Position numbers: made by a program. From Escherichia coli (GTDB lineage Bacteria; Pseudomonadota; Gammaproteobacteria; Enterobacterales; Enterobacteriaceae), in assembly GCF_022846255.1 (NCBI RefSeq), contig NZ_AP025682.1: a stretch of 64,000 bases of DNA, one strand, 5' to 3'. Positions 29,701 through 32,700 of the stretch are shown one piece after another (position 1 is the stretch's first letter; every line of letters begins with the position of its first letter).

Positions 29701-32700
29701 TTAATTTCACCATGTTATAGTTTTATTTGTGAATTAAATCAATTATGGCGATGAATTACAAGGGGTTAAATGCTGCCGCAGCATAGCGATATTGAAATAG
29801 CCTGGTATGCTTCGATACAGCAGGAGCCGAATGGCTGGAAGACCGTCACCACACAGTTCTACATCCAGGAATTCAGTGAGTATATTGCGCCACTGCAGGA
29901 TGCTGTAGATCTGGAAATCGCAACGGAGGAAGAAAGATCGTTGCTGGAGGCATGGAATAAATATCGGGTGTTGCTGAACCGTGTTGATACATCAACTGCA
30001 CCTGATATTGAGTGGCCGGAAGAACCAGACACAATGTAAGCGAAAAAGAAAAACCGCAGACACGACGTATGCAGGACGTGCTGCGGTTGGCTGGTGAACT
30101 TTCGATAGTGCGAGTATTGAATGATTTCCAGCCGTTACCGATTTTACGTATTTTTTGTATGGGAGGATTTGCATCTCCTCCCACCGATCCTCCATGACTT
30201 TACGCCACAGTCTCTAGGACTGCTATGTGCCAATAGCAGACATCCACACAATTATGTAAAATAGGCTAGTGAGTCAGCATTCATGTAGTTCAGACCATCT
30301 ATAGCTGAAATCACGATCGCTTAACAGTGATTCACTCATAACTGCTAGCGAGCAATGTTCTTGTTTGAACCTCAAATTGAAACCACAAAATCGAAAGGTT
30401 AAATAATCGATTATCCAAATAGAAGGCAATTCAATGGGAAATCACGATTTTATTAAATATATTATATTATTTGGCTTGTCTGGGATAATGTTGGCTATGC
30501 TAGTGCTCTTTATTTCCTCTGTAGCATATTATTTTTTCACCCATAATAAAGGAGTTCTTCAGTATATAATTAAAACTATTTCCATAGGCCTTGTAACTAT
30601 TCCAGTCGCAATAATACTAATCGTTGCACTCGTCCATTATGTTGTCTGGCAAAAAGGGATTTCAACGGCATGGCGTTTTATATTCCACTCGACTAAAACA
30701 ACAACCGTGAATGATATTGCTAATGCTGAATCAGAAGATGTTATTGTTCACCTTGTTCATGGAACATTCGAGACGAATGCATCTTGGACACAACCTGAGT
30801 CAAAAATGTGCAAATCAATTAACTCAAGGAATCCCAATATTGGTATATCTCGATTTAAATGGGATGGCAAAAACTCTGCATCCTCTCGTAAACAAGCGGC
30901 ATATCAATTAGGAATGCATATTGATAACTCTCCTGCAAAATACAATTATATTATTGCACATAGCCATGGGGCAGCTATTGTAAGAGAAATGTCTTATTTA
31001 CGAAGTGATATTGCAAAAAAAATTCAAGGCGTATGTCTTTTGTCACCACCGTTCATCTTTCGACGTAGGATAAAAAGAACGTCAGGTACTTTAATTAATC
31101 TTATTGATATTAGCGGAACTTTGGCCATTCAATTGTTACTTGCAGCACTTTTTGTACCTTTGAATCTATATAATATTAATTATGCAGCAGTAATTTTTTT
31201 TGTTTCAATATTTGCAGAAATTATAATCTCCAAAAAATATAAAAAAGAATTTTTGCAGGAAGTTGAGAGTGGCGAGCACTGTGAAGCGGTTGATTTTAGG
31301 AATGTTGAAATTTATCACGCAATTGGTGATGAAGCCGATTCAGGCCTAAGATTTGTAAGTTCACTTCACGAAGGATGTTTTTCAATTCTTTCCCAGCTAA
31401 AAAAAGCTCAAGTAAGTCATAAAAAGCTAACACATTGGTCAGCAGTTTTAAGCTACCTATTTTATATTTCCATGAGTGTATTAATATGGTTCTTCTATCC
31501 TGAAGAAAAATCATGGATTATAGTATTATTAGTAAGCTTTGTATTAACTTCTATTTCTCACATTTGGCAAAGGTTGAAACCATCAAAGGATGTTCCTCAT
31601 GTTTTACTTATTGCAGCAATACCAGTTGCGATTTTTTCATTTTGGTTGGCTGTAGCTAAGGCCATAGCTTATGGAGATTTGCGATTAATATTTTGCCCGG
31701 AAGTTTTTATTGCATCATCTGAAACTCCAGCTGGAGATCATAAAGTTATTAAATTTGCTCCACAGAATGATGGTATATTAATACACTCAACACACTCGCA
31801 TCCGGAGGCTATAATTAATGTTTCTGAATGGTTATATTGCTCTGAGAATAAAAGGGTAAATGGTGAACCATAGATTAATATAACCACCATAAATTAATTT
31901 GTAATATACTTCCCTGCTAAATTCGCAGGGGAGTATAAAAATATACTAACTCAGTGGAGTCTTGTGCTGAGTTAGTACATGTTAACAAGATATTTATTCA
32001 CCACTAAATAATTAGCTAGAACAATAAGAATAATTTTGGGCAGTAAAGACAGGATGTAAACTACACTTATTCCAGTATGTTGGTTATCGTAGTTATATAT
32101 GATGAGCTCTAAAGTCCGCTTCTCGCTCATAACAGACATTCACTACAGTTATAGTAGAAGGTATGCATGCTGAGTGGGGAAAGTGTGAAAGAAAAGAAGA
32201 CTGCTGCGTCGTTTGTCGTCACGTTTATCTTCATTGGTTATGCAAGTAGTAATACAAGATGGGACAAAACTGAGGCACACATAGCTTTGTACTGGATTGC
32301 TAGGCTTTGTGCTCTTCGATAGTGGTTAAGGTGGATCACTCCACCTTTTCATCAATCCAGTCCGCCCACCATTGCATCATTTCTCTGCGTTTATCGAGAT
32401 ACTGAGCATGGTTGTAAATCCCACGCACAGATCCGCCGTTGGCATGTGCCAGTTGCACTTCAATAGCGTCAGCAGGCCATTCGTGCTCGTTCATAATTGT
32501 GCTGAATTCATGCCTGAATCCGTGACCGCTTTCCAGACCCTCATAGCCGATTTGTTTGATCACAAGCAATACCGCGTTCTCGCAGATTGGCTTCTTCTTA
32601 TCGTTGCGCCCGGCAAAAACAAACTCTGATACTGGTTTAGTGATGGAGCTTAGCGTAGTGAGAAGTTCAACCACCTGGTCTGACATAGGAACAACATGAA

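What the first reader, a model, noticed from the sequence alone, without database searches (positions are those of the whole stretch)
30040..30433. Structured 394-bp region upstream of the membrane-hydrolase gene
Several inverted repeats precede the 30434 start: GGGAGGA-TTTGCATC-TCCTCCC (about 30,160-30,182), CTGCTAT-GTGCCA-ATAGCAG (about 30,215-30,234) and AATCAC-(13 nt)-GTGATT (about 30,315-30,340). These could be operators, a terminator for upstream transcription, or a structured 5' leader controlling the cargo gene.
Basis: seen in the sequence. Interest (0 to 1): 0.4.

Follow-up and report, generated by a model that had tools for sequence, protein, structure and literature searches.

The report
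Border repeat of a cargo cassette
The spacer in front of the hydrolase gene is a patchwork joint, and its middle inverted repeat is one of two conserved 24-base border sites that bracket a ready-made cargo gene which unrelated phage families exchange.

Summary
All three inverted repeats exist, a few bases off the stated coordinates, and the 394 bp hold more repeats than shuffles. They do not form one regulatory leader. The spacer is a mosaic. Window 30045-30243 is a lambdoid b-region block (lambda 24162-24340). Window 30242-30433 is the AT-rich upstream part of a 1.9-kb cargo cassette.

Repeat 2 (30220-30239) lies in a conserved 24-nt site, L (30218-30241). Its inverted partner R lies at 32114-32137, after the cargo gene. 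The same cassette, 99.6% identical, sits between the same sites in a P2-like prophage, and 85-87% copies occur in Enterobacter and Pectobacterium. Other cargo fills the same slot elsewhere: fun(Z) in P2, ea31-ea59 in lambda.

GenBank records from Nilsson et al. 2004 already annotate these as inverted repeats flanking P2 Z-region inserts, with site-specific recombination proposed.

Possibly new here:
- R-18 nt-L doublets that form cassette arrays.
- A 200-aa tyrosine recombinase gene lodged inside such junctions, a candidate enzyme.

Repeat 1 is not conserved as a hairpin. Repeat 3 has weak covariation support. The cassette upstream region is not unusually structured (z = -0.14). An unreported hairpin (30052-30088) is terminator-like on the minus strand.

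The parts
29770..30039 (+). Truncated tail-fibre-assembly (tfa') remnant ORF that ends where the finding begins (context).
   Evidence: Pfam Caudo_TAP matches the C-terminal half only, E = 2.6e-25. RefSeq relatives annotate it as an incomplete tail fiber assembly protein. The Rfam IS009 match at 29793-29996 is below the gathering score.
30052..30088 (-). Hairpin AACCGCAG-A-CACG..CGTG-CTGCGGTT, followed on the minus strand by UUUUUCUUUUU (30041-30051). It looks like an intrinsic terminator for leftward transcription.
   Evidence: Fold energy -19 kcal/mol, z = -3.5. Kept in 15 relatives, with one compensatory pair (CG to UA in 3 sequences). In dinI-type prophages a minus-strand dinI-like gene ends just to its right. 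The U-run is present only with this window's left flank.
30045..30243 (.). Conserved lambdoid b-region block, from the hairpin through to the L site. It is the backbone side of the joint.
   Evidence: 87.7% identical to phage lambda 24162-24340, between ea47 and ea31. 88% mean column identity over 15 lambdoid loci whose sequence further left differs. A 1-nt indel in 3 relatives argues against a conserved ORF across it.
30160..30183 (.). A lineage-specific perfect palindrome, not a conserved structure.
   Evidence: The left arm carries 1-4 uncompensated substitutions in every relative, including lambda (TGAGAGAA..CCTCCCA). It is absent from the consensus fold.
30218..30241 (+). L site GACTGCTAT-GTGCCA-ATAGCAGAC, the left border of the cargo cassette.
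   Evidence: Scores 13 of 14 arm positions plus the exact centre. Homology to the P2-like prophage starts at 30222, and homology to a lambdoid prophage with different cargo ends at 30243. The equivalent 24 nt are the last bases of the annotated 'left inverted repeat' in GenBank AJ512676 and AJ512685.
30222..32137 (+). The 1.9-kb cargo cassette as a unit: upstream region, 479-aa ORF, 3' hairpins and R site.
   Evidence: 99.6% identical over 1916 bp to E. coli TB06052 inside a P2-like prophage, between the tail-fibre-assembly gene and the tail sheath gene. 86.9% identity to Enterobacter (30222-32129), 84.7% to Pectobacterium (30229-32126) and 84.3% to Proteus (30226-32082). GC is 34% against 56% for the prophage late region.
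30309..30332 (+). Possible minor hairpin or binding site; weak support.
   Evidence: Enterobacter has AATTAC/GTAATT (compensatory), Proteus AATTAC/GTGATT (T.G), and Pectobacterium AATGAC/GTAATC (two mismatches). It is not in the minimum-free-energy fold, and the region's z is -0.14.
30377..30407 (+). Best conserved sigma-70-like pair for the cargo gene: TTGAAA, 19 nt, AATAAT. A second conserved TAAAAT lies at 30257-30262. Candidate only.
   Evidence: Top score in a relaxed scan. TTGA(A/T)A and (A/C)ATAAT are kept in four copies at about 85% identity. The standard scan found no plus-strand promoter here.
30434..31873 (+). Cargo ORF of 479 aa: predicted transmembrane stretches plus an alpha/beta-hydrolase-like core (AHSHG). 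Function unknown.
   Evidence: Pfam Ser_hydrolase E = 0.0014, below the cut-off. No NCBIfam or PADLOC family. 58 homologues, named hypothetical, lipase family, alpha/beta hydrolase or DUF676. Neighbours elsewhere include OLD-TOPRIM plus UvrD-like, CD-NTase and AAA_15/21 genes.
32114..32137 (-). R site, the right border of the cassette. On the plus strand it reads GTCCGCTTC-TCGCTC-ATAACAGAC; read on the minus strand the centre is GAGCGA.
   Evidence: Scores 13 of 14 arm positions. Homology to the P2-like prophage ends at 32137, and homology to the lambdoid EC4 prophage resumes at 32110. Lambda has the same site at 27322-27345, with the same right flank.
32138..32313 (.). Right backbone flank, leading to the prophage integrase (32336-33529, minus strand) and tRNA-Arg(CCT) argW (33655-33729, minus strand).
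   Evidence: 77% identical to lambda 27295-27510. Integrase domains. tRNA. The host flank is 99.3% identical to E. coli.

Best explanation
The 394-bp spacer is a recombination joint, not a purpose-built leader.

Left part (30045-30243): phage backbone, the lambdoid b-region block. It carries a leftward terminator-like hairpin and ends in a 24-nt site, L.

Right part (30242-30433): the cargo gene's own AT-rich upstream DNA.

L (30218-30241) and its inverted partner R (32114-32137) share 9-bp inverted arms GTCYGCTYT around a 6-bp centre. The centre is GTGCCA in L and GAGCGA in R, read in the same sense. Together they delimit a 1.9-kb cassette that moves as a unit between P2-like phages, lambdoid prophages, plasmids and chromosomal islands.

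Shown:
- the sites;
- their position at every mosaic breakpoint;
- the same cassette in different backbones, and different cassettes in the same backbone;
- R-18 nt-L doublets between tandem cassettes.

Inferred:
- Exchange is catalysed on duplex DNA by a site-specific recombinase acting L with L and R with R. The different centres would keep L and R from recombining with each other, as in engineered recombinase-mediated cassette exchange.
- The enzyme is a 200-aa tyrosine recombinase whose gene sits inside such junctions in other phages and would act here in trans.

The cargo gene is probably expressed from a promoter inside the cassette.
For: Mosaic structure:
- megablast and pairwise BLAST place the junctions at 30222-30243 and 32110-32137.
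- P2 itself has L at 15335-15358 and R at 17432-17455 around fun(Z).
- Lambda has an L-like site at about 24318-24340 and R at 27322-27345 around ea31-ea59.

Site family:
- The detector finds 347 sites in 2.2 Mb of fetched loci, against 0 in shuffles, and exactly two in the window.
- 168 L sites join 82 outer-flank classes to 119 inner classes. 175 R sites join 95 to 133.

Breakpoints:
- Pairs sharing the backbone diverge from site position 15-30.
- Pairs sharing the cassette diverge up to position -1..8.

Diverged copies:
- Cassette copies at 85-87% identity in Enterobacter and Pectobacterium end at the L and R positions.
- A 70% copy in Klebsiella is still flanked by L and R.

Arrays and doublets:
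- The doublet start-to-start spacing is 42 bp in 24 of 30, with variable linker sequence.

Duplex-DNA protein site rather than hairpin:
- No covariation between the arms (Fisher p = 0.61 and 0.38).
- Cargo lies in both orientations.
- No L/R hybrid centres.
- No cassette end is joined to L in one place and to R in another.

Candidate enzyme:
- In loci chosen by the protein alone, R lies 63-66 nt upstream of the start in 13 of 16 testable loci. An L-type site lies 20-22 nt after the stop in 16 of 18, for homologues of at least 84% identity. Some of these loci are near-duplicates.
- A group at 64% identity keeps the L site.
- More distant homologues have variant motifs at the same places.
- The gene is present in 889 of 5426 complete E. 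coli genomes and sits within a cassette array in a Qin-like prophage.

Prior art:
- GenBank AJ512676 and AJ512685 annotate left and right inverted repeats ending and starting at these sites.
- A review states that the fun gene's flanking inverted repeats 'enable site-specific recombination' (PMC8987985).
Against: - No recombinase homologue is in the window. P2 and lambda carry the sites, but none is among their annotated genes.
- The recombinase was in only 5 of about 245 site-selected loci. Its link to the sites is adjacency, not activity. It could be just another passenger.
- Crossovers are not strictly confined to the centre. The lambdoid-type A at site position 7 travels with the cassette into P2 backbones in L001, L006, L063 and L047, but stays with the backbone in L042 versus L078/L115. 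This fits homology-driven exchange or later conversion.
- No empty site was found with the one pattern tried.
- The loci were collected by searching for the site itself, so counts of contexts are biased towards intact sites.
- I could not read Nilsson et al. 2004, so I do not know how much of this it already shows.
- The promoter assignment is only a consensus match with a 19-nt spacer.
Confidence: 0.7

Rival explanations
1. The conserved 24-nt sites are only short shared linkers. Cassettes are swapped by general or phage-encoded homologous recombination (RecA, Red, RecET) or by template switching at these microhomologies. This would resemble the linker idea of modular phage evolution and the PeSL repeats of T4-type phages. 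No dedicated recombinase would be involved.
For: - Crossover positions vary within the site.
- P2, lambda and this window carry sites without the recombinase.
- Repeat-mediated shuffling without a dedicated enzyme is documented for T4-type phages (PMC2839356).
- Rousset et al. propose homologous recombination for hotspot exchange.
Against: - Homology alone does not explain the palindromic 9-6-9 architecture or the two distinct centres that are never hybrid.
- It does not explain the fixed 42-bp phasing of doublets despite variable linkers.
- It does not explain the conservation of 24 nt between totally unrelated flanks in over 100 combinations.
- It does not explain the recurrent placement of a tyrosine recombinase gene exactly between an R and an L site.
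- 24 nt is short for RecA-dependent exchange (established knowledge).
Confidence: 0.22
2. One reading: the repeats are operators or a structured 5' leader that controls the cargo gene.
For: - Repeat 3 shows one compensatory change and one wobble intermediate among four diverged copies.
- A conserved TAAAAT at 30257-30262 could give a long leader that includes repeat 3.
- Cassettes deposited from P2-like phages carry annotated promoters shortly after the left repeat.
Against: - The cassette upstream RNA is no more stable than shuffles (z = -0.14), and repeat 3 is not in the fold.
- No Rfam family matches on either strand at E up to 1.
- Repeats 1 and 2 lie in backbone or border DNA shared with loci that carry unrelated cargo, so they cannot be specific to this gene.
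- The AATCGA/TCGATT repeat is not maintained.
- The Pectobacterium copy breaks repeat 3.
- The best conserved promoter pair lies downstream of all three repeats.
Confidence: 0.12
3. L and R are transcription terminators or insulators that isolate each cargo gene from phage transcription. Their position at module borders would follow from that role.
For: - Both fold as 7-bp hairpins.
- They sit at gene ends.
- The neighbouring block does carry a terminator-like hairpin.
- In other loci the inverted block follows an R site.
Against: - No U-run follows L or R on either strand.
- The terminator scan does not call them.
- P2's annotated V-operon terminator is a different element inside the cassette.
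- The arms do not covary, and C-A combinations are common.
- Stronger hairpins that could terminate lie inside the cassette at 31905-31976.
Confidence: 0.05

Closest known systems
Inverted repeats flanking the Z/fun-region inserts of P2-like coliphages (Nilsson, Karlsson and Haggard-Ljungquist 2004, Mol Biol Evol 21:1; GenBank AJ512676, AJ512685)
   Same: The same 24-nt L and R sequences form the inner ends of the annotated left and right inverted repeats. The inserts are AT-rich foreign ORFs with their own promoter, placed after a tail-fibre-assembly gene. The window's cassette itself occurs at that P2 position. Site-specific recombination was already proposed.
   Different: Here the backbone is a lambdoid prophage at argW, and the outer parts of the roughly 100-bp P2 repeats are absent. 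Only the 24-nt cores are shared. I could not read the paper, so I do not know whether it covers lambdoid loci, doublets, arrays or an enzyme.
Phage lambda b region (ea47 / ea31-ea59 / sib-attP)
   Same: Window 30054-30231 matches lambda 24162-24340, and window 32087-32313 matches lambda 27295-27510. Lambda has an L-like and an R site in the same places.
   Different: Lambda's slot holds ea31 (HNH) and ea59 (AAA ATPase), transcribed leftward. Its L site is 1 nt shorter, with centre GTGCCG. The lambda record annotates no feature at these sequences.
Integrons (IntI, attI, attC cassette arrays)
   Same: It works alike in these respects: arrays of single-gene cassettes separated by imperfect palindromic junctions; a tyrosine recombinase gene next to a special junction site; and, from the neighbours of this cargo's homologues, possibly defence-related cargo.
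   Different: The site sequence and architecture differ (two 24-nt palindromes 18 nt apart against a single folded attC). There is no arm covariation that would indicate a folded single strand. Cassettes lie in both orientations with their own promoters. The recombinase has 200 aa and scores far below the integron-integrase cut-off.
Acinetobacter plasmid pdif modules (XerC/XerD-site-flanked modules)
   Same: Modules are bounded by oppositely oriented 11-6-11-type sites, the same module occurs in different replicons, and the enzyme acts in trans (from my own knowledge; a review was listed, PMC9771954, but not read).
   Different: From my memory of the dif sequence, the arms do not resemble E. 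coli XerC/XerD half-sites. Adjacent cassettes are separated by a doublet rather than sharing one site.
R64 shufflon sfx sites and the Rci recombinase
   Same: The L centre with the next base, GTGCCAA, equals the sfx core. Like sfx, L has a better conserved arm on one side. 6 of 12 right-arm positions match TCCGGTACGTGG.
   Different: No inversion is seen. Rci is a much larger protein (from my memory) and none is nearby. The R centre differs. The resemblance may be coincidental.
PeSL mobile regulatory cassettes of T4-type phages (Arbiol et al. 2010, PMC2839356)
   Same: Short repeated stem-loop-containing elements flank novel ORFs and mark insertion, deletion and replacement points.
   Different: PeSLs are promoter plus stem-loop units, in lytic phages, thought to act through homologous recombination. 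Their sequence is unrelated.

Membership tests
P2 Z/fun-type inverted-repeat-flanked cassette | The left border ends with the 24-nt sequence that closes the annotated 'left inverted repeat'. | tested here: met
   Window 30218-30241 against AJ512676 and AJ512685 positions 92-115; P2 15335-15358.
P2 Z/fun-type inverted-repeat-flanked cassette | The right border starts with the matching inverted sequence (..CGCTTCTCGCTCA..). | tested here: met
   Window 32114-32137; P2 17432-17455; the annotated right repeat starts at the same motif.
P2 Z/fun-type inverted-repeat-flanked cassette | The full roughly 100-bp P2 backbone repeats (AATCTGACAGTC.. / ..GACTGTCAGATT), between gene G and gene FI. | tested here: not met
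   The window has lambdoid flanks instead. Only the 24-nt cores are shared.
P2 Z/fun-type inverted-repeat-flanked cassette | The insert is AT-rich foreign DNA that is interchangeable between genomes. | tested here: met
   GC 34% against 56%. 99.6% identical copy in a P2-like prophage, and 85-87% copies in other genera.
Site-specific (tyrosine-recombinase) core site | Two inverted binding arms around a 6-8-bp spacer. | tested here: met
   9-6-9 consensus GTCYGCTYT / GTGCCA or GAGCGA / ARAGCRGAC from 138 and 154 unique sites.
Site-specific (tyrosine-recombinase) core site | A cognate recombinase binds and cleaves at the spacer edges. | not testable with these tools
   There is only genomic adjacency of a 200-aa tyrosine recombinase gene to R and L sites. 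By my reading of the printed sequence, the R-K-H-R-H-Y catalytic residues appear to be present.
Site-specific (tyrosine-recombinase) core site | Crossovers are confined to the spacer. | tested here: inconclusive
   All breakpoints fall in or at the site, but the position-7 polymorphism sometimes travels with the cassette.
Integron | An IntI-type integrase at curated score. | tested here: not met
   55.8 bits against a cut-off of 220 for the integron-integrase/XerA model. No such gene in the window.
Integron | attC: a single folded-strand site whose paired arms are kept by base pairing. | tested here: not met
   No covariation between the arms. The junction is two 24-nt palindromes 18 nt apart.
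Intrinsic terminator | A GC-rich hairpin followed by a U-run. | tested here: not met
   Not met for repeats 1-3 and for L and R: no U-run, and not called by the scan. Met only by 30052-30088 on the minus strand.
Known cis-regulatory RNA (riboswitch, leader, sRNA) in Rfam | A covariance-model match. | tested here: not met
   No match within 30040-30433 on either strand at E up to 1.
R64 shufflon sfx | Core GTGCCAA plus right arm TCCGGTNNNTGG, with inversion by Rci. | tested here: not met
   Core met for L only, arm 6 of 12. No inverted cassettes. No Rci-like gene seen.

The most novel reading that the evidence does not exclude
L and R sites, R-18 nt-L doublets and the junction-embedded 200-aa tyrosine recombinase together form a phage-borne, integron-like cassette platform. 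Its two heterospecific sites would allow whole cargo genes, often defence genes, to be inserted or swapped between P2-like phages, lambdoid phages, plasmids and chromosomal islands. This would be the unexplained 'recombination process' behind hotspot turnover.
Probability: 0.4. Interest if true: 0.85.

Novelty: new member of a known kind. Interest (0 to 1): 0.6.

Why it matters
How temperate-phage hotspots replace their cargo so fast is stated to be unresolved. A 2026 preprint on P2 and P4 hotspots says the recombination processes 'still need to be elucidated'. Rousset et al. 2022 only speculate about cos-proximal and homologous recombination.

This locus shows three things:
- The same 24-nt border sites operate in lambdoid prophages, and in lambda itself, as in P2.
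- The cassette between them moves intact across phage families and genera.
- A specific small recombinase is a testable candidate enzyme.

In practice, the sites give exact cassette boundaries for mining unknown accessory or defence genes, such as this membrane hydrolase. If the enzyme is confirmed, they would also provide a natural two-site cassette-exchange tool.

For annotation, the spacer should not be read as a gene-specific leader.

Tried and rejected
- Rfam scan of 28900-32500 at E up to 1: only tfa-derived IS009 matches and a terminator fragment of CssrB outside the region.
- Standard promoter and terminator scan: nothing on the plus strand in the spacer.
- Empty P2 site search, AATCTGACAGTC-N(4-34)-GACTGTCAGATT, in viral contigs: no match.
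- Full-text searches for the site sequences: only unrelated primers.
- Nilsson 2004 and Odegrip 2006 are not held in the library. Papers on hotspots do not mention border repeats.
- Hairpin hypothesis for the 24-nt site: rejected, because the arms do not covary.
- Conserved small ORF or sRNA in the 30045-30243 block: a minus-strand 67-aa ORF runs through the terminator and is broken by a 1-nt indel in three relatives. The U-tail is window-specific. No consensus structure beyond the terminator and L.
- DDE-transposon reading (TG..CA ends): no target-site duplication, and the flanks are inverted rather than direct.
- Serine-invertase reading (12-2-12 with central GC): not excluded, but no hybrid centres and no inversion were seen.
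- Xer/dif: from my memory of the dif sequence, the arms are unlike it.
- The cargo protein has no PADLOC or NCBIfam family. Close relatives in viral contigs gave only the same P2-like contig.
- One count of structure pairs failed on a string-length error. The pairs were read from alignment A2 instead.
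Full report
**Observation.** The three repeats are real.
- Repeat 1: TGGGAGGA/TCCTCCCA at 30160-30183.
- Repeat 2: CTGCTAT/ATAGCAG at 30220-30239.
- Repeat 3: AATCAC/GTGATT at 30309-30332, with a 12-nt spacer.

The stated coordinates are 0-8 nt off.

The 394 bp hold 12 perfect stems of at least 6 bp, against 2.5 +/- 2.0 in dinucleotide shuffles (P = 0.0005). The excess is confined to the left half. RNA folding of 30040-30241 gives z = -4.6. Folding of 30242-30445, the part that travels with the cargo gene, gives z = -0.14.

**Context.** The window is E. coli (99.3% identity in the fadL-fadI flank). It carries a lambdoid prophage integrated at argW, tRNA-Arg(CCT) at 33655-33729. The gene order, is:
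- tail fibre;
- tfa (28406-28990);
- a minus-strand SAM methyltransferase (29045-29713);
- a truncated tfa remnant (29770-30039);
- the 394-bp spacer;
- a 479-aa ORF (30434-31873);
- a P4-type integrase on the minus strand (32336-33529).

**The spacer is a mosaic.** Comparison with 5426 complete E. coli genomes splits the region.
- Sequence up to 30156 is shared with prophages that carry a minus-strand dinI-like gene next.
- Sequence up to 30243, and again from 32110, is shared with prophages such as that of strain EC4. These hold an unrelated 476-aa ORF in between.
- Sequence 30222-32137 is 99.6% identical to a single genome, TB06052. There it lies in a P2-like prophage between the tail-fibre-assembly gene and the tail sheath gene, the classical Z/fun position.
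- Window 30054-30231 is 87.7% identical to phage lambda 24162-24340, in the b region between ea47 and ea31. Window 32087-32313 matches lambda 27295-27510.

The cassette has 34% GC against 56% for the prophage late region.

**Repeat 2 is a border site.** The overlaps of these homology blocks are two short sequences.
- Left: GACTGCTATGTGCCAATAGCAGAC (30218-30241).
- Right: GTCCGCTTCTCGCTCATAACAGAC (32114-32137).

Read in the same sense, both fit GTCYGCT-n-T-[GTGCCA or GAGCGA]-r-r-A-GCRGAC. That is 9-bp inverted arms around a 6-bp centre, and the right site (R) is an imperfect inverted copy of the left site (L).

Where the sites occur in reference phages:
- P2 has exactly one L (15335-15358) and one R (17432-17455), around fun(Z). 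Nothing reaching the detector's threshold was found at its old/tin locus.
- Lambda has an L-like site 1 nt shorter at about 24318-24340, and an R at 27322-27345, around ea31-ea59.

Two pattern scans of viral contigs returned 227 loci. A detector requiring the exact centre plus at least 11 of 14 arm positions finds 347 sites in 2.2 Mb, against 0 in shuffled copies. It finds exactly two in the 64-kb window.
- The 168 L sites with flanks join 82 classes of outer flank to 119 classes of inner flank.
- The 175 R sites join 95 classes to 133.
- When two loci share the outer flank but not the cargo, identity collapses at site positions 15-30.
- When they share the cargo but not the backbone, the last difference is at positions -1 to 8.

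Three cassettes, including this one, occur in both P2-like and lambdoid backbones, joined at the same site.

Diverged copies of this cassette keep the same borders.
- DNA similarity to the window stops at the border positions in Enterobacter (86.9%, 30222-32129) and Pectobacterium (84.7%, 30229-32126).
- In Proteus (84.3%) it runs from 30226 to 32082, about 30 nt short of the R site.
- A Klebsiella copy alignable only within the ORF (70%) is still flanked by L and R.

**Arrays and doublets.** Many loci show the pattern L, cargo, R, then a new L starting 42 bp after the R start, and so on for up to three or four cassettes. The spacing is 42 bp in 24 of 30 doublets, although the 18-nt linker varies in sequence. 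Such arrays occur in several settings:
- after tail-fibre genes;
- in the early region of lambdoid prophages;
- in an Enterobacter chromosomal region with no phage genes among the called genes within 3 kb.

**What kind of site is it?**
- The arms do not covary. Positions 3 and 20 are independent (Fisher p = 0.61 for L and 0.38 for R), and C-A combinations are common.
- Cargo genes lie in either orientation between L and R.
- Neither site is followed by a U-run.

These points argue against an RNA or single-strand hairpin, a terminator or a leader. They favour a duplex DNA site read as two half-sites.

No hybrid L/R centres were seen. No cassette end is attached to L in one locus and to R in another. 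L and R are therefore not interchangeable, and cassettes are not inverted.

**Candidate enzyme.** In Klebsiella, a 200-aa gene with a Phage_integrase domain follows the R site of this cargo's homologue. The protein is a catalytic-domain-size tyrosine recombinase. It has weak XerA/XerC/invertase similarity, far below the curated cut-offs, and XerD is its best solved relative.

In five site-selected loci the gene sits exactly between an R site and an L-type site. As an independent test, 64 loci were fetched by the protein alone, with these results:
- Among full-length homologues of at least 84% identity, an R site lies 63-66 nt upstream of the start in 13 of 16 testable loci.
- An L-type site (AGCAGCC-CTGTGCCA-rr-AGCGGAC) lies 20-22 nt after the stop in 16 of 18. 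Several of these loci are near-duplicates.
- A group at 64% identity keeps the downstream L site.
- Homologues at 56-65% identity lack both by the detector, but show variant motifs (..CCGGCCAGAAGCGGAT) at the same place.

The gene occurs in 889 of 5426 complete E. coli genomes. One example lies within a cassette array of a Qin-like prophage. It is absent from the window and is not among the annotated genes of P2 or lambda, so it would have to act in trans.

**Prior knowledge.** A BLAST of a doublet against GenBank phages hit AJ512676 and AJ512685, the 'proviral Z-region' records of P2-EC30 and P2-EC67.
- These records annotate a 'left inverted repeat' whose last 24 nt are the L site.
- They annotate a 'right inverted repeat' that starts at the R motif.
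- They also annotate promoters for the insert.

They belong to Nilsson, Karlsson and Haggard-Ljungquist 2004, which I could not read. [quoted passage not shown]

Recent hotspot papers do not mention these repeats, and the 2022 and 2026 ones call the mechanism open.

The border repeats and the idea of site-specific exchange are therefore known for P2. The lambdoid and lambda instances, the doublets and arrays, and the recombinase link may be new, but I cannot be sure.

**The other repeats.**
- Repeat 1 lies in the lambdoid block. In lambda and in all 13 other relatives aligned, its left arm has 1-4 substitutions with no compensation, and it is absent from the consensus fold.
- The hairpin at 30052-30088 is conserved, with one compensatory pair. 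On the minus strand it is followed by UUUUUCUUUUU. In relatives it lies downstream of minus-strand genes (dinI-like, lambda ea31). The U-run depends on this window's left flank.
- Repeat 3 lies in cassette DNA. Enterobacter has AATTAC/GTAATT (a compensatory change), Proteus AATTAC/GTGATT (T.G), and Pectobacterium AATGAC/GTAATC (broken).
- AATCGA/TCGATT is not maintained.

The best conserved promoter-like pair is TTGAAA (30377), 19 nt, AATAAT (30402). It is followed by AGAAGG 8 nt before the ATG. A conserved TAAAAT at 30257 is an alternative. Neither is established.

**Verdict.** The most informative repeat marks the left edge of a mobile cargo cassette. The best-supported mechanism is exchange at the paired L and R sites, probably by a site-specific recombinase, with homology-driven exchange at the same sites as the main rival.

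Noticed in passing
window 28406-30039: A minus-strand class I SAM methyltransferase (29045-29713; weak PADLOC mad2 hit) is wedged between a full tfa gene and a truncated tfa copy. The 3' end of tfa is duplicated (28900-28947 resembles 29949-29996). Similar hairpins follow each copy (29005-29036 and 30052-30088). It looks like a second, differently bounded insertion.
   Followed up: partly
L245:2627-3334; also L249, L253, L258, L260, L311:7018-7725: The 200-aa tyrosine recombinase gene has a 12-bp perfect inverted repeat (ACTCAAATCTCC..GGAGATTTGAGT) that would sequester its Shine-Dalgarno sequence and start codon. A GC hairpin (GGGCTGC..GCAGCCC) forms the left arm of the L-type site after its stop. 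This suggests tight control of the enzyme.
   Followed up: no
L235 (phage lambda) 24318-27345: Lambda's ea31 (HNH endonuclease) and ea59 (AAA ATPase) occupy the L..R slot. This nuclease-plus-ATPase pair resembles two-gene defence systems, and would be lambda's own exchangeable cargo.
   Followed up: no
L239, L242, L245 (homologues of the 479-aa cargo): Relatives of the membrane hydrolase sit beside OLD-TOPRIM plus UvrD-like genes (Gabija-like), a CD-NTase gene, and AAA_15/21 ATPases. In Pectobacterium they sit on a contig carrying type IV secretion genes (probably a plasmid). This context suggests a defence or exclusion role for an otherwise unclassified family.
   Followed up: partly
window 31905-31976: Two 13-bp hairpins lie just after the cargo stop codon (UAUACUUCCCCUGC..GCAGGGGAGUAUA and ACUAACUCAGUGG..CUGAGUUAGU). 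The region's z is -3.2. Neither has a clear U-run. They may be the cassette's own terminators or stabilisers.
   Followed up: no
L240:2742-5693 (Enterobacter asburiae chromosome): An array of at least two cassettes, with R-L doublets, lies between a solute-binding-protein gene and an amino-acid permease gene. No phage genes are among the called genes within 3 kb. The sites therefore also operate outside recognisable prophages.
   Followed up: partly
window 32336-33729: The prophage integrase lies next to the tail-fibre and cargo end and to argW, as in K-12 CPS-53 (comparison from memory). The cargo slot is thus the region just inside the attachment site.
   Followed up: no
L031, L209 (right flank of an R site): Part of the lambdoid block (the equivalent of window 30054-30130, including the terminator hairpin) occurs in inverted orientation directly after an R site in other phages. 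There the hairpin would terminate transcripts leaving the cassette.
   Followed up: partly
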